This document shows positions 8,894-45,670 of a DNA stretch of 64,000 nt, piece by piece. The DNA is from Marsupella aquatica. Its lineage: Eukaryota > Plantae > Marchantiophyta. Position 1 is the first letter of the stretch, and each line of letters starts with the position of its first letter. A program made the translations under genes and the position numbers. The stretch lies in NCBI GenBank assembly GCA_973895155.1, contig OZ316891.1, forward strand, positions 10,169,875-10,233,874, in the 5' to 3' direction. The notes under the pieces are model-generated. The model saw only the letters and a list, made by a program, of their open reading frames with translations. It searched no databases and was not told the DNA's origin.

Positions 8894-11415
8894 TCAGCGA
8901 AATCGTTCAATAAATTGTTCTGGGATGTTTCCCTCAAACATACCGATACCCCACTGCAGCTCACACGACCGAACTTCTGGCACGTCAGTGTGCGCATCGC
9001 CAATGTAGGATGGTTCGGGCTCATCAAGAGGGCACTGCATGTTATGTGGGTGATCAATAAAACATGGCCCGGGAAGGTTCGTTCTCCAGCAAGGTGGATT
9101 CGGGACCTGCTTCTTGTTGATCCCATACTGGTTGAACACAATGGGCTTGATCCCTGCAAGCCCGTGAGAGACGTACCCGAATGTGGACCTCGGACTGCTG
9201 ATGATATCGTCCGCGAAGCTCAGTAGCCATATATCTGCTATGACTTTCTTCTCGTGGGAAAGCTGCCCCGTTTGCTGCTCGCTCTCGGAGCTGGGACTGA
9301 AGATGTCCACCTTGCTGCCAGTTCCTTCCGTTTGCACACTTCTGTTGAAAACCTCCGCCAGATTTTCGGCATACTCCTTCCTCAGTGAAGTGAGCACCAC
9401 GGAGATGCGCTCGTCCACGTCTCGTGGCTTGAGATGAGCTCTTCCAATCCTATTGTTCGGATGTTGAGAAGCATTTATGGACCTGCGGACGTTGGGGAGA
9501 AGGCCGGCGTAGACAGCACAAGAGAGGATATGCTCGCTGATGACCGGCGTGTACCCATTGCTCCAGGCTCGCACTTGGATGGCCAGGCGGCGGTCAGCTG
9601 GTGCCATGTGGGATTTGTAGATGTTCATGATTCGCTCCCAGATTTCCTTTTGTGGGCTTAGTAAATACCTTCCGGCGTGGAGAAACACAGCTCGATCTGG
9701 GAACCAGGCATTGAGCCGAGAGCGAAAGCTTGGAACGAAATAGAATCCTGGGACACTGTACTGATTGCTGCGGTAGAACACCCACGGGATCTTCGTCACG
9801 AGTCTCTGCTCACCCTCACAGAAGAATTTCAAGTCGGACGGTTTCTGCCAGTTCGACAAGAACGCCTCCAAACGCGTTGGTATGTCTAAATTCTGACGTT
9901 CGATAGCGGTTGAATTGATCGAATTGAATGCTCGGTCGTAAAACATGCCGTGCATTTCCGCGCTCTCCCTGATGCGGTCGTCCGGGAAGTCCTCGGGCAG
10001 CACCCAGGAGGATCGAGGGAAGGGCTCACAAAAGAGGTGCTGGAGCTCGGCCCCACGGGTGATGAGCAGCACTCGATTGGTCAGCAGGGCGTAGACGAAG
10101 GCGGAGACGAGGGAGATGAGTTGGTTCCCTTTGCCGTCCAGGTCTCGCCAGACGAGGTACTGGCAATTGGTCGGGGCAGATCCTTGTAGCGCGAGATCTG
10201 TCAATGGATGGCCCTCGGTGCATTTTCTGTGGTGTGCTTCGTAGGTTCGCAGAGCACGGAGGAAGGCAGGTGCGGGGTGATAGTTCGAATTCCAGTAGCA
10301 GTGCTGTTCGTATTTGCTCCTGCATGCTTCCTGGTGCGTAGTCTCTTTTGGACTGACGGGATGATACTGGTGTTGTGCTGGTATGTACTTGCGCACTGCT
10401 CCAATTTCGTCATCACAGTCTGCACCAGAAACCCACGGGATATTACATATTGGCTAGTGACTCTCGCCAGTCTTTCCAACATTTCAAAACCCGACTTCCT
10501 TACTTTCCCAATGGTTCGCTATAAATGTCAACTGAACGAAACTTCAATCTTGCTAGGAGCAGAGTTTTGACATTAATTGTGATTGTCTTTGAAGTTCTGG
10601 TCCGGAGCTTCTCCCTTGATTGAGATAAGTCCACCTCTTTGGAAAGTCAGTCTAAGGCTCTGAGACTCTGAGTGACACCGCATAGATGAGTGTCCATTCC
10701 GTTGGCAATCTCAGCTTCCTCTTATTCATTCAGATTCATGCTAAGTTGCGATCGATGGAAAGCGATGGACTTCATCGTCTTTGTCAATGCCGAGGGATTT
10801 CGAATTCCCTTTATTGTGAAATATTGCAGTATCACTGTCATCGTAGTGATGTAGTTGCTTGAGGCAGCTTCGTGAAATTCAGCTACTAGTGAATGAATAT
10901 ATAAGGGGACTCGAATGGGCTATTCACAATACTGTTCAACAATGATCTCCGAGATTGAAAAGCCACACTGAACAGGAGGCCACCACAGTCAAGAAACTAA
11001 TAGTCAACTCGAAATCAGACTTTCACTATTCTTGAAATGATTGATGTAGCTAGCTACTGTGTGAACCAACAATGATCGAAGTTGAAGGCTCTATATCCTC
11101 CATTTCGCGTTCGTACTAGCAGCTACGTCAATCCCAACAATGGCCATGGATCGAGAACTTAATCAACGCGTCGACGAGAGAGTCAAGCTTGTTGGAGAGA
11201 GAGAGCTTACTGATATCGGACGGCCGTTGAACTCTCCTGTACTTGACAATGGCGACTCCGTCTCTGGAATATGACGAACCCGGCCCGCTCCGTCCAGCAA
11301 TGTGAGAGAAGCTCACGGTAGCGACCAGGAGTCCAATCAAACATACGCCGGAGAACGAGGCCCAATTCTTGGCACTCAATCGAACCGGTTTCCCCCCTCT
11401 GGCCGTTGAAGCCAT
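8894..11415 (-). CDS. GT37-family alpha-1,2-fucosyltransferase (xyloglucan/AGP FUT-like), type II membrane protein, 2 exons
   Basis: Exon 1 11415-11211 (short cytosolic tail plus TM helix, donor A|GTAAGC) splices in frame to exon 2 10419-8894 (acceptor TGGTGCAG). GT37 motifs: CRSKYE..LRTYE.HHRKC, G.GNQLISLVSAFVYALLTNRVLL, LFCEPFPRSSWVLP, AIQVR, DIWLLSFADDIISSPRSTFGYVSHGLAGIKP. Confidence 0.92.
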
Positions 11416-16025: not shown

Positions 16026-18237
16026 CGCTGTCAAAGTGTCCTGCTTACGACGCGCCACAGTGAGAAGGGAGAAATTTACAGAAACTAAAATCATAGAAAC
16101 CACAGAAATGTCCAAGCACCTTCCTTCCCATCACGCTTAAAGGCTCCTATTAAGGACAGTGACGTATTTGCTCCAGACAGAATTGACCAGCTCAAAATGA
16201 ACCGAGAAATGAATAAGATATCAATTATCCGAACATTTCCTGCCATGAAAGGCTTGACTTCCTGCTATCAAACTATTCATTCCTGCACAGGTAGTGCTGT
16301 TACCTGCAGTAAAGTCCGTCTCTTGGCAATGGGTTCAAACTTCTGTGGATCTTCCTCACCGGTCCTGAGCAAAGCTGCAATCCGAAAAGACGATGACAAA
16401 ACAGGTTGCTAAATGACTAACTATGGTGCATGAATGACATAGGATGTCAAAGGTGATTATCGAGATTAGCTGCATTGGATCCTGCTAAGATGTTTTGTAG
16501 TAATTAGCAGCGCATGTTTCAAGTGCAAATCGATTAGCAACACCGTCCTTTGGTAACCGATTAAGCTTCAACTTTGAGAAGCTGGAGTTCTACACCCTCA
16601 GAGGCCTTAATTGGAATGATGCTGGCGTATGTGACACACTCTTGGTATTAGTAAGAGAAGTGTGGACACCTTCTTCGATTTTAAGATATCAATTGAAGAG
16701 ACTGCGAAGTGCCCATGGCTACATATCCAGCTGTCCTCTCTGTGTTTCGGGACCAATTGGCGACCATAGACCTATTAGTCGAGGATTGACGGATAGCAAC
16801 TCGATGCAAGAACGACTTATGTTAACCTCCACTTCGGTGTTATGGATTCTCCACCTTGGACGAATAATGACTTCTTCACCCAAAAACACAAATAACAAAG
16901 TGTCTGAACGTTGGATGTTTCCCTGTTCTCGTCCTCGGAAGGGTCGTCTTGATTCGCATTACAACAATAACCGACCTTTATCACGGCTATGCATAGTAAC
17001 CGAACAATCAGCACAAAAATCCAGCAACGAGTTCGTACCCAACGCCTTAAAGAAGACAAGTGCAACGCGGATCATACTTTGTTAATAGTCCGAAATTGCC
17101 CGAATCATGACACTCAGGCGGGCGCGCCGTCAGGAAGCTTGCTTTCCCTGCTTCCGTGCTCCTCTCCAATCAATTGATACACTCATGTAGTCGCGAGAAA
17201 AGGAACGAGCACGGTCGAAGATGTTTTAGGAAGCTCAATTCAACAATTTTACTCTTGGTCCTCTTTGCTAACGGCAATAATTTATTTCTCTTAGATAGCA
17301 ACCTCCACAAAGCACAAAATGCAGGCCTCAATTCTTCATCCAAGTATTTTCCCAAGCTGGTTGACAAGAAACTCAATTCAATAGAGTGAAATTTCAGAAA
17401 CCGAATAAGCTACGTGACATCTCGTGTCACCTATACATCTACCGATTACAAAAGATAAGCTCCTCTCCTCTCCTCTCCTCTCCAACTGAGTACGCACGCT
17501 GACTGGGGCCGCAGAATTACAAGATTAGGATAGATCCTACAAGGGGAACACACGACATGTCTAACACTGCAAATGCGCTTTCTACAGACATTTCTAACTC
17601 TTCGTGGCGTAAACTGTGAATAGTAATGACTGTTATCTCTCCGATTTGATTGTGCATACAAGCTTGAGCTATGAGTCAGCGTGCAGGCGGCAACAAACCC
17701 TGCCGACCCTGGTAATCGGAACGAGTAGGTAACACTCTCACAGCCTCCCATTCTAATCCTCTTTCATACCATGGAAGTTGTTAAAACAGGACTTATTAAT
17801 CATCAACAGAACTATCTAATCCGAACAGATGAACCAGATTAAAGACAACTACTACAAGGCGCGGGTGCACACCGGCATGGGCTATGCACCGACTATTTCT
17901 GGGAAACCACCACTCATTTGATTTGCAAACGAGTCATAGAGGATTGCGTATCTGCTGAACGTCTGGTTTGAAATTTCCGAGCGCTACGGTGAGAAAACAG
18001 GAAGCATTCAATTGCTCCGACCAGAAAGAGACGTTCAAAACAATCAGCGAACAGAAAACAGAGACCTAGAATCACAGTACTACTTATTCGAAGTGCAAAC
18101 CAAAATTTGCGATTACCTTCAAAAGATTTCTCGATGATCACCAAACCAGTGTAAGAACTCCGTCTCAAAATTTCTTGGCTAAGTTCGTCTTCCGTCAATT
18201 GGTTACTAGTCACTTCACCGTTTGCCTCACATGCCTT

Positions 18238-19004
18238 TGTCGCAACTTTCAACAACATGGATCGGCTAGAAATTGAATCTAGTAACCTCCCATGTACATC
18301 TCAGTGGAATTGAATCTAGTAACCTCCTGTGTACATCTTAGTTCTTCGTGCTCTACCAACCGGCTACTTTCAACAACATGGATCGGCTAGTAATTGAATC
18401 TAGTACCCTCCCATGTCCATCTCACTGGAATTGAATCTAGGAACCTCCTATGTACATCTTAGTTAGTTCTTCGTGCTCTACCACCCAGCCCTTCAGGCTT
18501 GCACATCTGTTGTTAAGTGTGGTTTATTTGGAACACCCTCCCTTGGGCCACACTTGCTTCTCTTGGTTTATTTGGAACACCCTCCCTCGGACCAAACTTG
18601 CTTCAAGAGAAGTGCTAGGAATTGAATCTAGGACCCTCCCACATACATCTTAGTGCACTACCACTACCACTGAGCTAGAGGCCCTTCATGCTTGCACCAT
18701 CTCTTGGTCAAACACCCTTCCTTGAGCCATCCCCTTGAGCCATCCCTTGAGGAGTGCACTGTTTCAAGAGATTTTCTGATGACCTTTGGCTATGATATCA
18801 TGTTGGAACTTTCAACAATATGGACCAGCTAGTAATTGAGATTAGCACCCTCCAATGTACATTTTAGTGATCTACCACTGAACTAAATGCCCTTCATGCT
18901 TGCAGAGTCTCTTATTCAAGTGTGAATCATTTCAAACATTCTCCCTTGAGCCACACTTGCTTCAAGACTATTCATGATCTTTGGCCCTGATATCATGTAG
19001 GGAC
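18238..19004 (-). mobile_element. Tandem array of degenerate TRIM/SINE-like units (17-bp TGT..ACA mini-LTR + PBS-like + tRNA-like cassette)
   Basis: 17-bp sites TGTCGCAACTTTCAACA (18238-18254) and TGTTGGAACTTTCAACA (18801-18817), plus half site TGTAGGGAC (18996-19004). Minus-strand PBS-like TGATATCATAGCC (18800-18788) and TGATATCAGGGCC (18995-18983). tRNA-like GGGCCTCTAGCTCAGTGGTAG...GGGTCCTAGATTCAATTCCTAG (18684-18615) with several partial copies. Confidence 0.7.
18615..18684 (-). pseudogene. tRNA-derived sequence inside the repeat unit (not a functional tRNA gene)
   Basis: A-box TAGCTCAGTGG and T-arm CTAG-ATTCAATTC-CTAG are present, but this copy has an internal GTGGTA duplication and the copies differ from one another. 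Confidence 0.65.
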
Positions 19005-20300
19005 ACATACAAAACTAACACAACATACCTTATGAAATGTTGTTGAATGATTCACTTTTACCTTGCAAAGAGATTTTCCAAACATAGAAACTCTTTCCTT
19101 TCTCATTTGACTACTTTGGCCTTTGTCCACATACACAACAGGTGGAGCTAATTCCTCATCATCATAGGACAATTCTACCAGCTCTGTCACATCTCTTACC
19201 TTTTGTTTCCCTTTCCTCACCCATGCAATAGGCTCTTCCAACAAGTCAATTGTCTCCAAATAATCATTCTTGGGAATCCTATGCCTATCTTTCAAAGGTA
19301 CATACTCACCAAGGGGATCACGAAATGTTACTCTCTTTCCAGGAATGACAGACTCTGTAAATAGATCATCAAAGCGTACAGACTTAAATCCATTAGATTA
19401 TGTTTTCACCTTCAATCTCTTAAAACAACTCTTTTGGGGTGAAAGCTCTGTTTCTGTACTCTTTGGTGAAGCTTCTTCATCATCTGCAATCTCAGAATCA
19501 GTATGATATCTTCCCCAACTGCCAGTCCTAGGTTTTCGTACAAAAACTTCTTCAATTTCAACCTTAGTCACATTGCATGGGTCAACTATACATTTCCAAA
19601 GACATGTCATTCTCGATTTTTCCATGCCCTGTCCATTTAATGGAATTATCCAGCTAGATGCAGGAATAAAAATCCCAGATCTCACCATTTCAATTAGTGT
19701 AGAAAGAAATGTGGCATACAAAGGTCTATCTGTCCTATACTTATACCAAACATACATTCTTTCTACAACATTTTTGTTAGTCAAAGTCACTCTGGACTTT
19801 AGATAAGCTCGCCCATAAATAGAATGTAGTTGTTTTCCTGCAATCACAACTTCATCAAAAATGTTATACATTGCATGCAAGAAATGAGTTTTACCCATAT
19901 CTTTCAAACAATAACCTATCATTCCTTTGAATGTATGCAATTGTCTATTACTCAAGGATTTGCACATCACTTTACCTACAGGAGTCATGTTCTTCACACC
20001 CTGCCAACCCATGTATTTCCTAACAAGGACACCAAACGACCTGGCAGATTTGATTCTGGCTCTTACAACCATTTGCATGTGCAAATGACTCTCTAACTCT
20101 CCTCTCTCTAGAGCTACTAGACCAGATAAACAATGCTCTCGTATTAGTGTATCCATCAAACTCAACTCTTCAGTATGCACATCTGCACCAAGATATCCCA
20201 CTGTAATACTGAGTTCCATCACACTGTCCATTAAAGAAACATCTCCTTGGATGATAGCACGAGCTTTATGTTTCAAAGAAGCCATGTTACATGTGCACAC
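18993..20300 (-). pseudogene. Replitron-type HUH endonuclease/transposase with one in-frame TAA at 19400-19398
   Basis: Motif I-like ELSITVG, HUH motif ERGELESHLHMQ and catalytic-Tyr motif LHTFKGMIGYCLKD (YxxK); no helicase domain. ORFs 19398-20300 and 18993-19295 share a frame, and the 34 codons between them are open apart from that single TAA. Confidence 0.85.
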
Positions 20301-20369: not shown

Positions 20370-20660
20370 TCACAGTGAAAAAAACCTTGCCTTTTGACTC
20401 CACAACAGTTTCTTCTTCCCCTGTCTAATCTGTGGGCCGGGTTTTAATATTCTAAATGGACCAGCAAGTATTTTATGGTTACCTTGACGACAAATCACCC
20501 AACAAAACTCTACGTCTCTTACACAATGAGGGGTTATTGCTTCTATGTTCTCTAAAATAAAATTTCCAATGTTTGATGTTGTGTAAGGAGCGATCAGGTC
20601 TTCTGGCAATTGTGAGTCTTCTGGAAACTCTTCTAGCAACCGTGACTCCACATTGGACAT
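20370..20660 (-). CDS. Hypothetical 96-aa ORF or upstream exon associated with the HUH transposase
   Basis: ATG-initiated, same strand, ends ~70 nt before the HUH ORF. Protein-like composition (MSNVESRLLEEFPEDSQLPEDL...); no family recognised. Confidence 0.35.
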   Translation of the reverse strand: MSNVESRLLEEFPEDSQLPEDLIAPYTTSNIGNFILENIEAITPHCVRDVEFCWVICRQGNHKILAGPFRILKPGPQIRQGKKKLLWSQKARFFSL

Positions 20661-20724
20661 TAATAAACTTAAGACTGTTCAAAAGACAGACTAATAACTC
20701 ATGCACAAGGAATTGAGTTGAAAA

Positions 20725-21109
20725 CTCTAGGTTAGTGAATGACAATGTTACAGCAAAATGAACTGACCAGAGAAATGTTAGCTAAGCCGACACCTCTAGG
20801 TTAGTGAGCGATGACTTTTATTGCAAAAAGAACTGAGCCGAAAGCTCTGGGTTAGTGACCAAGATGACTATTACAACAAAATGAACTGAGTAGGAAGTTA
20901 ATCGAGCCGACAGCTCTGGGTTAGTGAATGAGACAAGAGCAAAACAATAACTGAGCCGATAGCTCTGGGTTAGTGAATGAAACAAGAGCAAAAAGATAAC
21001 TGAGCCGACAGCTCTGGGTTAGTGAACAAGGCAAGAGCAAAAAGATAATTGAGCCGACAGCTCTGGGTTAGTGAACGAGACAAGAGCAAAAAGATAACTG
21101 AGCTGACAA
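20725..21109. repeat. Tandem array of ~49-bp units (7 copies)
   Basis: Core CTCTRGGTTAGTGA at 20725, 20794, 20845, 20914, 20963, 21012 and 21061, usually preceded by GAGCCGANAG. Confidence 0.92.
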
Positions 21110-21158
21110 TGGTAGCACACAATGAGAGGAAAGTTAGGCCACATCCAACTTCAATCCC

Positions 21159-21393
21159 CTGCAAAGCAAAGGCAGAGCCAAGCAAAGAACCTGATCACTA
21201 AGACTTGAGACTCGGGAGCGATGGCAGCGCTGAGCACTGAGAAGTAAGAGCATATTCACTGAACAAGAAAGGAGCCGCTGCAAAGCGAAGGCAAAGCCGA
21301 GCAAAGAACCTGATCACTAAGACTTGAGACTCGGGAGCGATGGCAACGCTGAGCACTGAGAAGTAAGAGCATATTCACTGAACAAGAAAGGAG
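21159..21393. repeat. 119-bp tandem duplication
   Basis: CTGCAAAGC.AAGGCA.AGCC.AGCAAAGAACCTGATCACTAAGACTTGAGACTCGGGAGCGATGGCA.CGCTGAGCACTGAGAAGTAAGAGCATATTCACTGAACAAGAAAGGAG starts at 21159 and 21278. Confidence 0.92.
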
Positions 21394-23100: not shown

Positions 23101-23371
23101 ACCTCCAAAATGTACGTTTTTTGAAAACGTACCCCTATACCCGCCTTGGATACCCCTAACCTTGGATACCCCTATATTATTCCTTGGGATCGTTGCATGT
23201 GTACCCCACGCCTTGCATACCGACACGTTATTCTTTATTGGATACCCCCACCATTATGTAATTTTATGCATCTAATTGGATGCTTTCACCATAATGTAAT
23301 TTATGCCTAAATATCTCCTACTTTTTGCTAGATGCCAAAAGAACTTGGCATGTTCCAGGATGAGTATGCTA

Positions 23372-23488
23372 TATAGGGACTTCCAACAACATGGACCAGC
23401 TAGCCATGTACATTGATGTGCTCTACCATTGAATTTCAGGCCCTTCATACCTGTATCATCTCTGGTTTGAGTGTGGTTCATTTCCAAG
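23372..23488 (-). mobile_element. Isolated partial copy of the mini-LTR/tRNA-like unit
   Basis: TATAGGGACTTCCAACA (17 bp) is followed by ACATGGACCAGCTAG..CATGTACAT..GTGCTCTACCA.TGAA..GGCCCTTCAT...GTGTGGTTCATTT, matching the units at 18238-19004. Confidence 0.7.
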
Positions 23489-26400
23489 AGCCTAGCTTCG
23501 ACATTTGATAACTTTTCAGTCTATGGCTTTGGCAATACTGTCCTTTGGGTTGCAGTTCAATATTTATAACTTTCAGTACTCTGATTGCAATCTACTGCCA
23601 GGGCAACGGAAAGAATATTTTCAGGAGGGAGGGCAATTGAACTAGATGGTCACAAACAAGAAGGCAAACAACCATCAATGCAGCATCATTGTGCTGGAAA
23701 GAGGTGTCAAAACTATGTTCCCTTTTTCTTTTTGTTAAATCACACAGTTCCCTTGTAAAGTACTCCAGGTAACCTCTAGAGTAGTTGCTTCCTCCTTTAT
23801 TGGGTCTTTTTGCCTTTGTGATCCCACTTTGGCACTTTCTGTTCTTTGATGGTGAGATGTATATTTTAATACTCCTTTTACATATAGTACAATGATGTAT
23901 ATATTGAAGAGCACATTATAATTTTGAGAATTTTAGACTATCAATGTCATCTCAACAGTTCACCACAGGGGCCCTCTAGTGCTCAAACTATAGATAAATT
24001 CACAAGAAAATAGCATCTAGAAATAATTCATATTCATTTAGAAAGCACCAAAATAAAGTTTTTAGGGCACGAGATCCTATGATGGGAAATGAGTTTGACT
24101 CAAACAAAAACTCTGTGTGTGTGTGGGGGGGGGGGGAGCGGCACAGGCGCACCAAAGGCATTTCCATTAGGGGTGTAAATTAGGGACTGTCTAACCTTGG
24201 ACTCTGTATACAGTCCGCTCTTTTTGGATACTCAACTTCAAAGATAATGTGGCAGACTTGCTTGTGGCCGAGGACTGTAACCATGTGTGCACTATCTTGT
24301 GGAGTTGTCCCAATTTGATGGGGTGCAGTGTGACTCCACTGCTACTAGGGTTGGTTTTTCTGGGGAGTTTATCTGACCCCAAAACAAATGGTTAGACTAC
24401 CTTCCAACTCTACAGTCAGTTTCATGTGACAAACCCCAGTGGTCATCGAGCTGGTGGTATATAAATGTTATCTTTCAGGGCAAACCCAGAAAAAGGAGAG
24501 GGAGTGGGGGTCACCCAAATTTGAATTGCAGCCAGGTCTACATCTCTCAACACCCTACCCCATAAACTCTCCTTCAAGGGCTACCCTCACTACAGTAATA
24601 GATTGGGAAAAGGCAAACAAGACGATTTCCATCCTGTTAGGTCACCCCCACCATCACATTGTCTGGCCATTTTAAGTAAATTGGTCCTTTTTCTTTACAT
24701 CCTAAATTAGAAGTCATTTTTAAAGCTTGACTTCTCCCATGATTGGATTGGCTACGGTATATATCCAGTTGAGGAGAACACAATTATGAGGCAACTAAAT
24801 CTGGCCAAAGTGGTGGATTAGGGCCCACCAGCAGCAGCCCAGTTCTGTCTACAGTACCTAAAATGGGCACAATAGTTGTAGTGCAGGCTCATTATTTTTG
24901 TGACAATCCAGGAACAAATCAGCATTGTGCCCCAGCCTACAGAGTCCAACCCGAATCCCTAATATGCTCAACTAGATGCAGCTCGCAAATGAGAAACTAA
25001 TAGAAAGAAAACCTGGCAACTCCTCCATGCCTTCAGCAGTGTTGTTGGGTCCAGTCTCCCTTGCATCCTCTCGAGATTCTGGATTAGCGGAACAAGTAGC
25101 ATATTTGAGCCGAGCTTGCTCTGGTAGTCCTTCTCCTCCCCCCTGTAGCTCGGGCAGCTGCTCCCTCACCTGTGTTTGCCCTTGCAAGAGTGATCACTCA
25201 TGTTCACAGCTCGTGCCTTTCCATGGCTGCGTCTTGTTCCTTCCTTGGACAACTTGGTTCTCGCAATCATGGAGGATCAATGGAGATTGAGGCCCCTGCG
25301 CAATAGGAGATGGAGATTGGGTGCAGCGCACAGTCTGGCCGGAAGAAGCTGCAGCACGCAAGATGCACAGTGTGATACTATTGACAAGAAGTTTTTTCTG
25401 CTGAAAATCAAGGCTGAAAAGATTTTCAGTCAAGCCCTAAAGTGTTCAACCCTGTTTAGTTAACCGTAGTTAGTTATACTCAACTCACCCATCATTGACT
25501 ATTTTACGGATATCTCTAAAGCCCCAGAATTTCATCCAGATATACAAAACTCATGGAGTGAGGGACACAAGTATGATACAAAACAAGACCCGCACACCAT
25601 TATCTTAGCACCTCACAACTTCATTTTTTTAAGCAATCATGAACACATTATACACTATCATAAACAACAAAATTATCTTGAGACCGGGAGTCCTTCCAAA
25701 AATCAACATAAACAAAATGAGTCTTCTTAGATAGAATGCTAAGAAACAAATTCGCCTAGGGCTGGTGGCCTACTCGGTTTTCAGATCATCTATCTATACA
25801 CTATTTTCTCTTTACTAGTGTCCTTTGTGTGCCATGTGTATCTTGTAGGCTATTGGTAGCAACTCACTATGGCACACATGAGGTCACACTTGCAAATCTT
25901 GACCGGGGAGTGATTGTGTGAAAGGTGGAAAGACCCTATAAGGATTAAATCAAAAATAATTCCCTCTTGAAAAGAGGTATCCCTTCAAGGCTAAAGGTGT
26001 GCAAAACATTAAAGTAAAAGTAAAAAATGCAAAGGAATGCGACCCAACAAGGGTCATTAAAACATAAATTGCATCAAAAAAACTTTACGAAACAAAAACT
26101 GAAAGGTAGTTCGCTTACTATCTTTCCAAGAAACATTTCCCAAGCTGCTAATGTATAAATGCATAAATCTTGTTTGAACTACAAGATTCCTTCCTCGAGT
26201 CTGCTCAATGAACAGTAAGGTTTTCATGTAAGAGTTTTCTTTCCTGAGTCTAGCCTTGACCATTAAGGTTGGTACGAATAGCCATTATGGAATCTAGACT
26301 TGCAACTTCTTTTTAAGTAATGGTGAAATTTTCAGCAATATGTCATATGTTGACCTGGTGGAAGTCAGAACGGGAGTCAGAACCAATGCGTTGCTCCTCC

Positions 26401-39173: not shown

Positions 39174-39594
39174 TGTTGAGCATAGACGACGATCGCAACG
39201 GCAAGCCCATGAACCATCCAACGCACAATAGTCGACACAAGAGATACGTGGTTCACCTCCTTGAGGCTACGTCCACGGGAACACACAAGAGAGCTTTACT
39301 GAACTCTAAGCCCATCAGCTATACCGAGTCTCCACAGTGTAAGCTCTCCCTATCTCTCAAGTGGCTCCATACCAATGAGCCTTGGTTCTACCTCTCCAAG
39401 CACACATGCCTCTTATGATATAGTGTGCAACTTAGTTGTACCTAACCACATAGTTGTACCTAATCACGTAGTTGTACCTAACCACATAGTTGTACCTAAT
39501 CACGTAGTTGTACCTAACCACGTAGTTGTACCAACCCACGTTGTTGTACCAACCACGTCATACCTAACCTAGACGTAAGAGTAAATACCCAACA
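39174..39594 (-). repeat. 3' LTR of the copia element
   Basis: Identical by eye to 45250-45670 and adjacent to the PPT. Confidence 0.97.
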
Positions 39595-39784
39595 ATCTTC
39601 CCCTTGACTCTGGTCTAGGGGAGAGTAATACTGCCAATGTATATGATCCCTCAGCGGGAAGTTCTGGACAAAAACCAAACTGGTTTCCCTCTCTAACTAG
39701 AGCAAACCAGAACTAAGCCGTAGCCTAATACATAGGAATGAGGAAGAGCATATATCAGTAATTACAATGAATGTTAAGAAAACT

Positions 39785-42700
39785 CTACTTGTGATGCAAT
39801 TGCAAAACCTGCAATACGTCACGGTGTCTAGAGAAACTCTCCAAAGGAATCACTTTGGTAAATGCGTCAGCCGGGTTGAGTTTACCATCAATCTTGACTA
39901 GCTCAAACAAATTATCAGACACAGCCTGCCTGATAAAATGGTACCTGACATCAATGTGCTTCACTCTGCTGTCCATCACCTGGTTCATAGCAAGGTGGAG
40001 CGCACTTTGACTATCACAATGGAGCTTCACATTCCCCTGTGGCAATCCCATTTCAGTGATAAGTCTATCCAACCAAATTGCTTCCTTTGCTGCTTCCGCA
40101 GCTGCAACATACTCCGCTTCTGTAGTAGACTGAGCAATACACTTCTGCAAAGTAGACCTCCAACTTATGCATCCACCGCCAAGTGTGAACACGTATCCTG
40201 TTGTTGATCTCATTCGGTCCAAATCTTGTCCATAGTCAGAATCAACATAGCCAATCAATGATTTAGCATTCTTTGCATTCGCATCAAATAAAAGACCATG
40301 ATCCACGGTACCCTTCAAGTACCTGATAATCCACTTCACTGCTTCCCAGTGTACCTTCCCTGGATTTGACATGTATCTGCTTACCTTGCCCATAGCCATG
40401 GCAAGATCAGGTCTAGTGCAAGTCATCAAATACATGAGACTCCCCACTGCCTTGTCATACGGAACCTTTGACATCAACCCCTTCTCTGTGTCATCCGTAG
40501 GACAGAACGCTGATGATAACTTGAAGTGTGGAGCCAACGGGGTACTTACTGGCTTGCTATTCCCCATGTTGAACCTTGCAATTACCTTCCTCGCATAACT
40601 GCTCTGCGTCAACCATAGCTTGCCAGCCTCCAAGTCCCTAGTGATCTCCATACCCAAAATCCTCTTAGCTGGCCCTAAGTCCTTCATCTTAAACTCTGCA
40701 CTAAGCAGTGCCTTGAGCTTAACAATCTCAGACCTATCCTTGGCTGCAATTAGCATATCATCCACATAAAGTACTAAAACAATGAACCCAAATACAATAT
40801 TCTTTACCGATTTCAAATACACACAAGGGTCAAATACACTTCTGTGAAAACCTTGTGACCGAATCCAATCGTCAAACTGCTTGTTCCACTGTCTTGGTGA
40901 CTGCTTCAACCCATACAAGGATTTCAGCAATCTGCAAACCAATTCCTCCTGTCCTCTCTTCACAAAACCTAGCGGTTGTCTCATGAAGATCACCTCTTCC
41001 AATGTGCCATAGAGGAAAGCTGTGACAACATCCATCTGATCTAGCAGCAGACCAAACATTACAACAAGTACACACAATAGTCGTATTGTAGAGTACTTAG
41101 CAACTGGTGAGAAGACCTCATTGTAATCCACACCTTTCTCTTGTGTGAATCCCTTTGCTACCAACCTAGCCTTGTAGACCTTCGATCCACCTCCTATGGA
41201 ATTATCCTTCAGCTTGTAAATCCACTTGCTGTCCACCACTTGCTGACCCTTAGGCAGCTTAACAAGCTCCCAAGTTTTGTTGTCCTTTAGTGACTGCATC
41301 TCCGTTTGCATTGCTGCAGTCCACTTCTACTTCTCCTTTTGAAGCACTTGCCTCATGAAATGAAGAAGGTTCCCCTTCTTCCAAAATTAACGCATCACCC
41401 TCATCATCAGTTGCAAAATCATTTTCTTGCAGTTGAGATGAATCAACCCACTGTCCATACCTTGGTGGAGCACGTATAGTGCGACCAGATGTTCTTCTAG
41501 CCGATGACTTCGGTTGATCTGCGTGTGCTGATACAATTTGAAGCTCAACAGCATCCACTTGCTGCTCACCAGCATCAACAAACTCCTCTGGTTCCTCTGG
41601 CACAAGAACCAGCTCCATAATTGGAGTAACTCCTTCTCTCCGGTCATGCACCTCATAACCAATCTCCCCCTCAACGAGATCCGGGATAGGAGATTTTCCT
41701 TTGTCAGTACGGGAGACCTGAGTATTCTCCCCCTCCTTCAATAATCTGGATTCATTGAAGGAAACATCCCTACTGACAACAAGCTTACAGGCAATAGGAT
41801 CCCATAGCCTATAGGCTTTCACACCACTCTGGTACCCAAGAAAAACACATTTCTTGGAGGTAGGATCCAACTTGGTCCTATTCTGCTTCGGTGTGAGAGC
41901 ATATGCATCACTTCCAAAAACTACCAAGCCATGATAGTCTGCTTGCCGCTTATAGCGCATCTCAAATGGTGTTTTGAAATTGATAGCACTAGAAGGAGAA
42001 AGATTTACCAAATAAGCTACGGTATTGATAGCTTCTGCCCAAAATTCTTGTGGTAAACCTGATTGGCTCAACATACTCCGTGACCGCTCCAACAGTGTCC
42101 GATTGAGCCTCTCAGCGACACCATTCTACTGCGGAGTATAAACTGTGGTGAGATGGCGAGTTATCCCCTGTTCTGAACAGTACTCTTCAAATTCCATTGA
42201 AGTGTACTCCCCGTCGTTGTCTGACCTCAGACTCTTCACCCTTGTATCCAAACACTTGATCGTGTTTCCAGTCTGATTCTCCACCTGGGCCTTCCACTTC
42301 TTAAAAATGGACAAGACATCAGACTTATGCGTCATGAAATAAATCCACACAAATCTTGAGTAATCATCAATAAATGATACATAGTACAACTTTCCAGAGT
42401 GTGAGGGAGTCGAGGATGGACCCCACACGTCACTATGTATGTACTCAAGAACCGCTTTGGAACGATGAGTTCCAACACCAAAAGCACGATGATGCTGCTT
42501 TCCAAGAATGCAATGCTCACAAAACTCTAATTTACAAGATTGCAAATCAGAAATGAGTCCATTCTTCCGTAAGATAGCCAAACCCTTCTCACTCATGTGG
42601 CCTAGCCGTGAATGCCACAGTTGAGTCATCTCCTCGTGAGACTTGGTTACATTGGCCTCTCCACATACAGTATTGCCCTGTAACACATACAAATTCTTTT

Positions 42701-43058
42701 GTCTACTCCCCTTCAAAATCACTGTCTCTCCCGACCTGACTTGAAGTTCACCATCAATAACGCTCCATTGATGACCATTTGAATCCAACACACCGAGTGA
42801 AATCAGATTCTTACGCATGCCAGGTACATACCTGACTCCGGACACTGTGCGCACAGCGCCATCAAACATTTGAATCTTCACAGACCCAATTCCCTCAATT
42901 TGACAGGAGTGATCATTTCCCATCAGAACTGAACCGTTTGAAATAGAGTAAGAACTGAAAAACTCACGAATGTAACAAATATGAAAAGAGCAAGCACAAT
43001 CAAGAATCCACACATCATCTGCTCTCCTAGATGACGTGCACAGGGCATACCCCCGGCT
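39785..43058 (-). pseudogene. pol: Copia pol (protease, GAG-pre-integrase, integrase, RT, RNase H), disrupted
   Basis: Motifs WILDCACSFHIC, LWHSRLGH..CEHC, HSDVWGP/FIDDYSR/SDNDGEY, YKARLVAKG, LYGLKQSPRQW, LYVDDML, YVDSDY, STTEAEY. Lesions: TAG in PQ*NGVAER (42128-42126), and a frameshift plus TAG near 41340-41325. Confidence 0.95.
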
Positions 43059-44099
43059 TCATAAAACATACTCATCATTGAGTAAATCAGCTTCTCCATC
43101 AGCCCTAGCCACATTTGCCGATGAAGTTTCCGCTGCCTTTCCCTTACAGTCTCGCTTGAAGTGTCCAACTTGGTTGCACTTCCAACATGTCACCTGCCTC
43201 CTCTGAGGGGATTTACCCTTGGACTTAGATCTGGATTTAGATCTAAACTGGGTTCTACGGTCCCCAGTTGGTCGCTGCATACCCCTCCCACGGTTAACAT
43301 TGAGGGCAGCACCAGATGATGAAGGCTGTGATGTGATGTGCATCTTCTGCTGAAGATCATCACTAAGCAGAGAACTTACCACGTCATTATATGAAATGGT
43401 ATCCCTATCACGATGCAACAACACTCGTGATAGGGACTGGTAAGATGGAGGCAATGAACTAAGAAGCTGCAGAGCCTTTGTCTCATCATTCAAAGTCTCC
43501 CCAAGGTTTTCCAAGTCAACGACCATGTCGTTGAAAGCATCCACATGGTCTTGCAACTTTGTGTCGGATTCCTTCATCCTGAAACTCATGAGTTTGTAGG
43601 AAGTGTAGAGCCGGTTCAACAACTCCTTGCGGTGATACTTGCTCTGCAATTCCGCAAACAAGGACATGCAATCCTTATGTGCACCCAACTGCTTGATGAT
43701 GGGAGGCATGAGATAGAGTGTAACACACCACACTCCCTGCTCCTGCATGCGGTCCCATTGTTTCTCATCAACATCGTCTTCACGAGGGCTCAGCAGTTGG
43801 CCCATCCCTGACGCATAGAGCACTCCCTTCACCTGCTTCTCCCATAGCAAGTAGTCAGAGCGCCCATCATACTTTGTCACTTCATACTTGGGTCCCCCAA
43901 GCTTGAAAGTCCCCATCTTCTTCTTTGGCACTACCGTGAGCTCCGGTAGTAGTACTGCTTCCTCCACCACACGCCGCACCGGTGATGGTATCGGTGTCAC
44001 GTGCTCTTCCTCCTGCTCCTCTCTCTGCCCCTGAAACCGCCGCGGTGATTCTCGTGCTTCAAGTTCCACGTCTTCGAAAAATTCCTCCGAATCACTCAT
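43059..44099 (-). CDS. gag: Copia Gag (UBN2-type, CCHC zinc knuckle), intact 346-aa ORF
   Basis: KYDGRSDYLLWEKQVKGVL, LQDHVDAFNDMVVDLENLG, KALQLLSSLPPSY and CWKCNQVGHFKRDC. Confidence 0.93.
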   Translation of the reverse strand: MSDSEEFFEDVELEARESPRRFQGQREEQEEEHVTPIPSPVRRVVEEAVLLPELTVVPKKKMGTFKLGGPKYEVTKYDGRSDYLLWEKQVKGVLYASGMGQLLSPREDDVDEKQWDRMQEQGVWCVTLYLMPPIIKQLGAHKDCMSLFAELQSKYHRKELLNRLYTSYKLMSFRMKESDTKLQDHVDAFNDMVVDLENLGETLNDETKALQLLSSLPPSYQSLSRVLLHRDRDTISYNDVVSSLLSDDLQQKMHITSQPSSSGAALNVNRGRGMQRPTGDRRTQFRSKSRSKSKGKSPQRRQVTCWKCNQVGHFKRDCKGKAAETSSANVARADGEADLLNDEYVL

Positions 44100-45249
44100 A
44101 TGAGAAAATCACAAAAATTGTTGTTTTTCACAACTTCTCAAAAACTTGAAACTCAACACCGCCGCGTAGCCCACAAAGCTAGGAGTCCAATACTGAAAAC
44201 CGAAATCAAAATCGAAATTTGACGGAAAAGTTATTCAAATTTTGGTCGAGGTGGGTAAAACCTTGGGAAACTCCCCCGTTTTGACCACCTCAGGGAATAA
44301 CCGAAATACCAAGTACAACCCGTTGTCGGAATTACGATGTGATTGGTGCGCCGCGTTGCCAACTTCAATGGCTACGACCTCGCCAAAAAATAACCAAAAA
44401 AGTTACCGTTCAACGGATGAAATCTTTGTCGGACGGTCAAAAAATAGCTCTATGGTTTTTTGGAATATTCTATGACCCTTGTACAGGCCCTGTGGGAATT
44501 TTGGAAGAACAATCGAGGGGCTGACACGTGTCCTCGAACCCCCAAAACCCCCTACCACCCTTCGTCGTCGAAATCTGGTCGCGCGCGCAGAAAATACACA
44601 CGGCAGAATGTACCCCTCGACACCAAACGCAAGATATCTCACTCGGGTTTTGACGAAATCAAGATCTGATTTCAGATTTAGAAACTAGACTTCGAGGCGG
44701 TGAAGATCGATATAAGAAGCACCCAAAACGAGGAAAGAACGAGGGAGAAAAAAATTGGTAAAGATGACAGATTTCTCTCAATTGCCATAGCCAATTTCGA
44801 ATCAGTTTTTCAAAGAGAAAAAATGGTACCTTGTCAACAACGAATGTTGATCAATTGCACTTGGTGCCGTCACCAATCCAACAAGGTAATTGATTTTGCT
44901 TAGCCTTCCTCTTTGCATCAAAGAGCCAATCCCGGACTCAAAACAATCGTCTTGCCTCAATCTCTCCATTGAGTCAAAACACTTGACGCTTCTCCCTCCG
45001 AGTCGATTGTCAACTTTCTTCACAAAATCCAGAACGACAAAAACTTAGATCTCTCTGCACCACGAGCTCCGTTCAGCGATTTCTTCACACCGTTAGAAAG
45101 CTCTTGCCCCGATCTATCCGTTGAGCCCATAAACTCCAAGTTCCATGTGACGGAACTTCGGGAAATCCACCGACACTCAACGCTGGAAAAACCGTAATGA
45201 AATCCCGTCACGAACACACGTCACCTTCCAAGCATGCTCTGATACCAAT

Positions 45250-45670
45250 TGTTGAGCATAGACGACGATCGCAACGGCAAGCCCATGAACCATCCAACGC
45301 ACAATAGTCGACACAAGAGATACGTGGTTCACCTCCTTGAGGCTACGTCCACGGGAACACACAAGAGAGCTTTACTGAACTCTAAGCCCATCAGCTATAC
45401 CGAGTCTCCACAGTGTAAGCTCTCCCTATCTCTCAAGTGGCTCCATACCAATGAGCCTTGGTTCTACCTCTCCAAGCACACATGCCTCTTATGATATAGT
45501 GTGCAACTTAGTTGTACCTAACCACATAGTTGTACCTAATCACGTAGTTGTACCTAACCACATAGTTGTACCTAATCACGTAGTTGTACCTAACCACGTA
45601 GTTGTACCAACCCACGTTGTTGTACCAACCACGTCATACCTAACCTAGACGTAAGAGTAAATACCCAACA
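45250..45670 (-). repeat. 5' LTR of the copia element with an 18-bp tandem array in U3
   Basis: Adjacent to the PBS; about 7 copies of TAGTTGTACCTAAYCACR at ~45509-45633. Confidence 0.97.

What the first reader, a model, noticed from the sequence alone, without database searches (positions are those of the whole stretch)
18993..20300. Replitron-type HUH endonuclease with a hidden ~135-codon C-terminal extension
Seen in sequence: HUH (HLHMQ) and single-Tyr (GYCLKD) motifs with no helicase. After the TAA at 19398 the frame stays open (SNGFKSVRFDDLFTESVIPGKRVTFRDPLGEYVPLKDRHRIPK...) to 18993, so the original frame was ~435 codons with one nonsense change. A possible donor AAG|GTATGT near 19028 suggests a further exon was separated by the repeat array. 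Established knowledge: Replitrons are a recently defined group of eukaryotic HUH transposons of green algae and non-seed plants, distinct from Helitrons and closer to Rep-type HUH proteins. Inference: this is a recently inactivated copy of a family with a long charged tail. The catalytic core lies before the stop, so the 300-aa product could still be active.
Basis: partly seen in the sequence, partly recalled or inferred. Interest (0 to 1): 0.72.

Follow-up and report, generated by a model that had tools for sequence, protein, structure and literature searches.

The report
Liverwort Replitron with stop-truncated tail
This is one copy of a known kind of plant jumping gene (a Replitron), likely in a liverwort, whose enzyme is cut short by one premature stop; relatives read through that stop, and the lost tail carries a short motif shared across the family that likely docks a host protein, possibly the RNA-surveillance helicase MTR4.

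Summary
Observation confirmed. The minus-strand ORF 20285-19398 (295 aa) passes both Replitron Pfam cut-offs and models as a circovirus-like Rep. The frame stays open 134 codons past the TAA, far beyond chance. Sibling contigs read GAA (one type GAT) at that codon in 8 of 12 contigs; 2 carry the TAA, 2 are unresolved. A published Bazzania transcript protein (Craig 2023, Dataset S5) runs through the same position and aligns with the extension by eye. So this is a Replitron copy, likely of a leafy liverwort, with one nonsense change: a new member of a known kind. Corrections: motif II is HUQ (H69-M70-Q71), not HLH; the donor at 19028 is untested and no further exon is needed. New here: Replitron tails, called unalignable in print, share two short motifs, RY[F/H] and acid-[Y/F]-[I/V]-P-L (19 of 82 tails against 1.6 shuffled). 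The TAA removes the second, which resembles the Mtr4-binding peptide of Trf4/PAPD5; binding was not tested. This scan noted decayed Replitrons before in another genome.

The parts
19398..20285 (-). Replitron transposase ORF as it stands: 295 aa, ending at a premature TAA
   Evidence: (PF21859 52.8 bits, cut-off 28.5; PF21860 27.4, cut-off 27.0)
19845..20219 (-). Y1 Rep (HUH-class) nuclease domain, residues 23-147: motif I S26-T28, E60, motif II H69-M70-Q71, motif III G124-Y125-x-x-K128
   Evidence: model pLDDT mostly above 90; circovirus Rep Z 10.0, rmsd 2.9, 96 aligned
19542..19769 (-). Helical domain 2 (putative oligomerisation domain), residues 173-248, complete
   Evidence: PF21860; helices 173-248 in the model
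19503..19511 (-). RY[F/H] motif (R259-H261), kept in the truncated product
   Evidence: R[YF][FHWY] in the first 35 tail residues of 47 of 90 homologues, shuffled mean 1.4
19398..19400 (-). Nonsense codon 296 (TAA; siblings GAA or GAT)
   Evidence: C on + at 19400 in 8 of 12 contigs covering the site, four runs, two studies; two contigs identical to the window
18993..19397 (-). In-frame 134-codon extension: the lost C-terminal tail
   Evidence: collinear by eye with WZYK_B_trilobata_1
19293..19307 (-). EYVPL (327-331), the family-wide acid-aromatic-aliphatic-Pro-aliphatic tail motif, lost by the stop
   Evidence: resemblance to the Trf4/PAPD5 peptide from PMC4330371
19152..19214 (-). KGK plus hydrophobic-acidic stretch (358-378), shared with the Bazzania protein; SIM-like by recall only
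   Evidence: 7 of 21 identical, hand count; SIM patterns not enriched family-wide
19023..19031 (-). Donor-like AAG|GTATGT, untested
   Evidence: no RNA data
18240..19004 (-). Array of ~200-bp units with a tRNA-like core; supplies the final TGA; unclear whether part of the element
   Evidence: solo copy at 23371-23498
20705..21110 (.). 49-bp tandem array upstream; the element's left end may lie near 20650-20720 (undefined)
   Evidence: contigs unique to this locus start at 20642/20657

Best explanation
This is a copy of a multicopy Replitron DNA transposon, likely of a leafy liverwort, whose transposase gene carries one nonsense change at codon 296 that cuts off a real coding tail, so the copy is likely crippled or dead. 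Shown: Replitron domains and catalytic residues, an open coding-like tail, sibling sequences that read GAA/GAT through the codon, and a published liverwort transcript protein that continues through the same tail. Inferred from the family (Craig 2023): the intact enzyme of about 430 aa would nick the element's ends in single-stranded DNA with Tyr125 and a metal held by E60/H69/Q71, likely as a multimer through domain 2, and copy-and-paste the element using host replication or a host helicase. Inferred here: the tail is likely disordered and works as a docking arm whose short motifs (RY[F/H], acid-[YF][IV]PL) bind host nuclear proteins. The truncated protein keeps nuclease, domain 2 and RYH but loses EYVPL; its mRNA would have a stop 370 nt or more ahead of the old end and is likely a target of nonsense-mediated decay (own knowledge).
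For: Pfam PF21859 and PF21860 above cut-off. Catalytic positions match the family. Model matches circovirus, PCV2 and nanovirus Rep nucleases, Z 10.0/9.4/9.0. Extension open in 0 of 5000 shuffles with core-like codon bias. Siblings: 8 of 12 contigs over 19400 read G on the minus strand; X1 record 4 and X4 record 16 bridge the site with more than 31 letters each side and differ nearby only by an in-frame 3-base gap; the TAA is in X1 record 5 and X4 record 17, identical to the window over 85 bases. WZYK_B_trilobata_1 aligns to residues 301-349 (18 of 49 columns identical, one gap) and 357-377 (7 of 21), and a Plagiochila protein has the same motif neighbourhood (by eye). Tail motifs enriched over shuffles and found de novo without the window's sequence. 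Neighbouring host gene closest to Calypogeia, 77%.
Against: Two of 12 contigs (one sequence type, about 88% identical; X1 record 6, X4 record 18) show no listed change at 19400, so they may share the stop; by my reading of their loose end that type is frameshifted just after. The two TAA contigs have only 30 letters on one side, one short of the tool's bridging rule. The 11 listed variant sites in the extension are 4 synonymous and 7 non-synonymous, no sign of present purifying selection, though only displayed rows were counted. The extension alone found no database homologue, and the two closest full database relatives have other or missing tails. 29 of 105 homologues have tails shorter than the 47 residues kept before the TAA (many are fragments), so a short tail may suffice. 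Element ends were not found.
Confidence: 0.82

Rival explanations
1. The 295-aa product is a working short transposase or helper allele; the tail is dispensable, so the copy is not inactivated.
For: All catalytic residues, domain 2 and RYH lie before the stop; no frameshift in the core; the TAA occurs in two runs of one study as well as the window; curated Replitron proteins vary widely in tail length.
Against: The stop removes the motif that is the top 5-letter pattern of Replitron tails; most sibling contigs read through; a long 3' region after the stop would likely trigger decay (own knowledge).
Confidence: 0.12
2. TAA is the normal stop of this family and the extension is 3' UTR, open by chance.
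For: No database homologue of the extension alone; one sibling type unresolved at the codon.
Against: 0 of 5000 shuffles, coding-type codon bias; GAA/GAT in 8 of 12 contigs; collinear transcript protein in Bazzania.
Confidence: 0.02
3. The tail continues into a further exon spliced from the donor at 19028, separated by the repeat array.
For: Good donor consensus followed by T-rich sequence; the TGA lies in repeat sequence that begins at 19004; Replitron-1 has introns (PMC10288648).
Against: Other donor-like sites lie within the extension; the Bazzania tail is already matched in length without another exon, though its true end is unknown; the downstream ORF 17914-18300 lies mostly in sequence at single-locus contig depth. 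This rival is compatible with the best explanation and concerns only the last residues.
Confidence: 0.2
4. A domesticated host gene derived from a Replitron, or an endogenous CRESS-virus Rep.
For: Core intact; fold closest to circovirus Reps.
Against: At least four sequence types at the codon within the runs; Replitron-specific domain 2 and no helicase domain; repeat-rich neighbourhood.
Confidence: 0.04

Closest known systems
Replitrons (Craig 2023, PNAS, PMC10288648), especially the leafy-liverwort 1KP transcript proteins WZYK_B_trilobata_1/2 and NWQC_P_asplenioides_1
   Same: Motifs SUTU, HUQ, GYxxK and the conserved Glu; domain 2; no helicase; short basic N-terminus; tail collinear with the Bazzania protein. 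I read parts 1-5 of 7 of the main text, Datasets S1 and S3 whole, S5 all four parts (entries cut at about 400 letters) and part 2 of 9 of S4.
   Different: Genomic copy with a nonsense codon; Dataset S1 lists no liverwort genomic consensus, only 7 transcripts from 5 Jungermanniopsida in S3. The paper calls the tails unalignable and names no tail motif. Ends, direct repeats and target site not determined here.
CRESS-DNA virus Reps (circovirus, nanovirus) and pMV158 RepB
   Same: Nuclease fold and HUQ/Y1 chemistry (Z 10.0 to 7kii, 9.4 to 8h56, 9.0 to 6h8o, 7.4 to 8amu).
   Different: 12-14% identity; no SF3 helicase; Replitron domain 2; chromosomal multicopy element.
Helitrons
   Same: Eukaryotic HUH-class transposons.
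   Different: Single Tyr (GYCLKD, not YxxKY), no PIF1-type helicase in the 430-codon frame.
Trf4/Trf5/PAPD5 Mtr4-binding peptide (PMC4330371, passages read; ELM classes named in PMC10767929, passages read)
   Same: Short acid-aromatic-aliphatic-(Pro)-hydrophobic motif in a poorly conserved, likely disordered region: vertebrate EQxDF(I/L)P, yeast NxDFIx(F/L) against Replitron acid-[YF][IV][PS][LF].
   Different: C-terminal rather than N-terminal; five residues only; present in about a quarter of tails; binding untested. The likeness of RY[F/H] to the Air2 core-binding motif is recalled and was not confirmed in any passage read.

Membership tests
Replitron | Rep domain matching PF21859 | tested here: met
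   52.8 bits, cut-off 28.5
Replitron | Motif I SUTU, conserved Glu, motif II HUQ, motif III GYxxK with one Tyr | tested here: met
   S26-I-T28-V, E60, H69-M-Q71, G124-Y125-C-L-K128
Replitron | Adjacent helical domain 2 (PF21860) | tested here: met
   27.4 bits, only just above the cut-off of 27.0; confident helices 173-248
Replitron | No fused helicase | tested here: met
   No Pfam family on the 134-aa extension, no PDB sequence match for residues 249-430 at E up to 10; an unseen further exon is not excluded
Replitron | Fold like CRESS-DNA Rep nucleases | tested here: met
   Top six VIA-align rows are viral Rep nucleases, Z 10.0-8.0; Foldseek gave no row at E up to 0.001
Replitron | Multicopy family in the genome | tested here: met
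   At least four sequence types over the stop codon, up to four contigs within one run; copy number not measured
Replitron | Short direct repeats at or near the termini; 2-4 kb element | tested here: inconclusive
   Ends undefined; only one shared 10-mer between left and right zones, 20456 and 18820; no genome held
Replitron | Copy-and-paste mobility | not testable with these tools
   Needs de novo insertions or an assay
Replitron | Host among algae, protists or non-seed plants | tested here: met
   Neighbouring fucosyltransferase: Calypogeia 77%, Marchantia 60%, Riccia 52%, seed plants about 35%
Helitron | Y2 motif and fused SF1B helicase | tested here: not met
   GYCLKD has one Tyr; no helicase domain in the frame
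CRESS-DNA virus Rep | SF3 helicase fused behind the nuclease | tested here: not met
Mtr4-core-binding motif proteins (Trf4/PAPD5 type) | Motif resembling DF(I/L)P / DFIx(F/L) in a disordered region | tested here: inconclusive
   Resemblance only; the ELM patterns themselves were not seen; tail model pLDDT 33.8 from a single sequence
Mtr4-core-binding motif proteins (Trf4/PAPD5 type) | Direct binding to MTR4 | not testable with these tools
   No eukaryotic MTR4 sequence was available to the complex predictor

The most novel reading that the evidence does not exclude
Replitron transposases across algae and land plants carry in their 'unalignable' tails a two-part mimic of the TRAMP complex's Mtr4-docking peptides (RY[F/H] right after domain 2, acid-[YF][IV]PL further out) and use it to capture the host MTR4/HEN2 helicase, either to shield their own RNA from the nuclear exosome or to clear RNA from R-loops at element ends; this copy is a natural deletion allele of the second motif.
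Probability: 0.13. Interest if true: 0.75.

Novelty: new member of a known kind. Interest (0 to 1): 0.36.

Why it matters
The locus itself is an ordinary damaged transposon copy. Its value is as a lead. Replitrons lack a helicase and their host partners are an open question (PMC10288648). The read-through shows that the tail is kept across leafy liverworts and that tails across the whole group share two short motifs that the founding paper does not describe. That gives a cheap test: pull-downs with tail peptides, and tail-deletion mutants of the active Chlamydomonas element. It also points to a genomic liverwort Replitron family with read-through siblings; the paper's curated genomic set has none from liverworts.

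Tried and rejected
No whole genome is held, so no genome-wide copy alignment. No RNA holder listed: no evidence on expression or splicing either way. Homodimer prediction of residues 18-265 gave no answer (score 0.00 in two runs, alignment not used): no evidence for or against multimers. Atlas look-up of the extension was unavailable. Extension alone: no homologue at E up to 10 among 6 candidates of 73-235 aa, no significant BLAST hit among 152 stored relatives (best E 1.2), none in 17 metagenome loci, which are distant (28-53% in best segments) and mostly broken. No second copy in the window. Terminal repeats and hairpins: nothing beyond one 10-mer and weak stems. SIM-like patterns are not enriched family-wide (1 and 3 of 82, as in shuffles). 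The motif is not enriched in N-terminal regions (2 of 61, shuffled 0.85). The tree of 67 cores is a quick search only; motif-bearing rows are not clustered (14 changes, shuffled mean 13.6). The tRNA-like units give no ARAGORN gene at default, no Rfam match, and only weak calls at a lowered threshold. Literature: 'replitron' is in 11 papers, 9 listed, none by title on tails or liverwort genomes; transposase + MTR4 + HUH endonuclease gave 0 papers; motif-word searches gave nothing relevant. Falk 2014, the TRAMP structure paper, is not held. [quoted passage not shown] The SI Appendix of Craig 2023 was not read and may bear on termini and on the alignment limits.

Full report
Observation. On the minus strand the frame runs from ATG 20285 to TAA 19400-19398 (295 aa) and stays open 134 further codons to TGA 18995-18993, 430 codons in all. 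The open stretch is not chance: 0 of 5000 dinucleotide shuffles stayed open, the other two frames hold 10 and 16 stops, and codon-position composition equals that of the core. The donor-like AAG|GTATGT is at 19031-19023, but similar sites occur at about 19309, 19199 and 19060. The last three codons and the TGA lie in the first unit of a repeat array that begins at 19004, so the native end of the frame is not certain.

Identity. The 295-aa protein passes Pfam Replitron_HUH (52.8 bits, cut-off 28.5) and, narrowly, Replitron_C (27.4, cut-off 27.0); the extension matches no family. HMMER found 658 relatives at E up to 0.001, of which the best 150 were listed. In an alignment with 86 stored relatives the conserved catalytic positions are E60, H69, Q71, Y125 and K128. 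The model is confident over residues 21-250 (mean pLDDT 86.8). Foldseek gave no row at E up to 0.001; the wide structural search ranked circovirus, PCV2 and nanovirus Rep nucleases first (Z 10.0, 9.4, 9.0). The host is likely a leafy liverwort: the fucosyltransferase at 8894-10453 is 77% identical to a Calypogeia protein, 60% to Marchantia, about 35% to seed plants. Craig reported Replitron transcripts from five Jungermanniopsida but no liverwort genomic consensus.

Is the stop a mutation? Contigs of four DNA-like runs from two studies were laid on 19325-19475. Twelve contigs cover 19400 (four in X1, three in X2, one in X3, four in X4; the X1 and X4 counts follow from summed depths, one X4 record not being listed). 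Eight read G on the minus strand, giving GAA, or GAT in one type. Two (X1 record 5, X4 record 17) are identical to the window over 85 bases, so the TAA is in reads and is not an assembly slip, although these records have 30 rather than 31 letters on one side. Two, of one more distant type, show no listed change and stay unresolved. The read-through types also lack three bases near 19386, in frame. X2 matches the window's flanks without differences and may be its source; it shows no TAA contig but one that differs from the window only at 19400, which may be a merged bubble or a sign that the stop is recent. Against present selection on the tail: of 11 listed variant sites in the extension, 4 are synonymous and 7 are not (only displayed rows).

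Is the tail protein? In Craig's Dataset S5 the Bazzania transcript protein WZYK_B_trilobata_1 continues without a stop past the equivalent position. By eye it aligns with our residues 301-349 (18 of 49 columns identical, one gap) and 357-377 (7 of 21); the Plagiochila protein shares the motif neighbourhood. These are hand counts, not a computed alignment. Its tail after domain 2 is 168 aa, against 171 to our donor and 182 to our TGA, so no further exon is required; whether its end is a true stop I could not see. Database searches with the extension alone found nothing, and a single-sequence model is unstructured (pLDDT 33.8; weak evidence).

Tail motifs. The paper calls the C-terminal regions unalignable. 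Among 105 of 152 stored relatives whose domain-2 end could be mapped, two short motifs recur. R[YF][FHWY] lies in the first 35 tail residues of 47 of 90 tails of 25 aa or more (shuffled mean 1.4). [YF][IVL][PS][LFM] is in 19 of 82 tails of 40 aa or more (shuffled mean 1.55, maximum 7 of 500 shuffles) but only 2 of 61 N-termini. Those patterns were chosen after seeing the data, so I repeated the search de novo in a reduced alphabet without the window's sequence: basic-aromatic-aromatic was the top 3-letter word (38 of 82, z 16.8), and acid-aromatic-aliphatic-Pro-aliphatic the top 5-letter word (6 of 82, z 11.6, against a best of 9.6 in 100 shuffles). The extension holds exactly that word, EYVPL at 327-331 (chance 0.6% strict, 4% loose). 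Motif-bearing rows are scattered over a quick tree, so this is not one clade's trait. Most tails (63 of 82) lack the strict motif, though some are fragments or have looser forms.

How it likely works. From the family (PMC10288648): a Y1 Rep transposase nicks and rejoins single-stranded element ends, probably as a multimer through domain 2, copying the element, and relies on host replication or a host helicase. These steps are inferred, not shown here. I infer that the tail is a disordered docking arm. The motif resembles the Mtr4-core-binding peptide of Trf4/5 and PAPD5 (yeast NxDFIx(F/L), vertebrate EQxDF(I/L)P; PMC4330371). Mtr4 is bound jointly by short Trf4 and Air2 peptides; that the Air2 peptide contains RYF is my recall and no passage read confirmed it. 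A five-residue likeness is weak, and MTR4 tracks RNA, not DNA, so it would serve RNA protection or R-loop clearing rather than unwinding the element. I put this at 0.13. This copy keeps nuclease, domain 2 and RYH and loses EYVPL and the KGK-acidic block; it is likely crippled and its transcript likely unstable (own knowledge of nonsense-mediated decay), but a working short form is not excluded (0.12).

Membership and limits. Every protein-level Replitron feature tested is met; Helitron and CRESS-virus features are not. Termini and direct repeats were not found, no genome is held, and splicing and expression are untested.

Verdict. The interest lies in the family-wide tail motifs, for which my searches found no description in print. 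Interest 0.36.

Noticed in passing
window 39174-45670 (-): Copia LTR retrotransposon with two 421-bp LTRs 100% identical, so very young, yet its gag-pol is split by two in-frame stops and a frame change (ORFs 43059-44108, 42126-43058, 41259-42125, 39785-41326).
   Followed up: no
window 18240-19004 and 23371-23498: About 200-bp units with a tRNA-like A-box/B-box core (label from recall), four to five in tandem after the transposase and one solo; related pieces occur on many contigs in X1-X3. Could be a SINE or satellite, or part of the Replitron's right end.
   Followed up: partly
window 20705-21393: 49-bp tandem array with a small hairpin per unit, followed by a 119-bp dimer, upstream of the transposase.
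   Followed up: partly
window 8894-10453 (-): Xyloglucan fucosyltransferase in one open frame of 519 codons, closest to a Calypogeia protein.
   Followed up: partly
window 23286-23500: Very high summed contig depth, with many loose ends at 23374 and 23487: edge of one or two abundant repeats.
   Followed up: no
window 20484 and about 20335: Donor-like AAG|GTAACC and a T-rich acceptor-like site upstream of the ATG suggest a 5' UTR intron.
   Followed up: no
P0127 tail (stored protein): A Replitron-like protein whose tail reads like a P-loop helicase (GNTGKS motif), which would be an exception to the no-helicase rule or a chimera.
   Followed up: no
L007-L009, downstream of 3546: Decayed metagenome Replitron copies with DFLPL in the core's frame, beyond a stop, within 900 nt of the core.
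   Followed up: no
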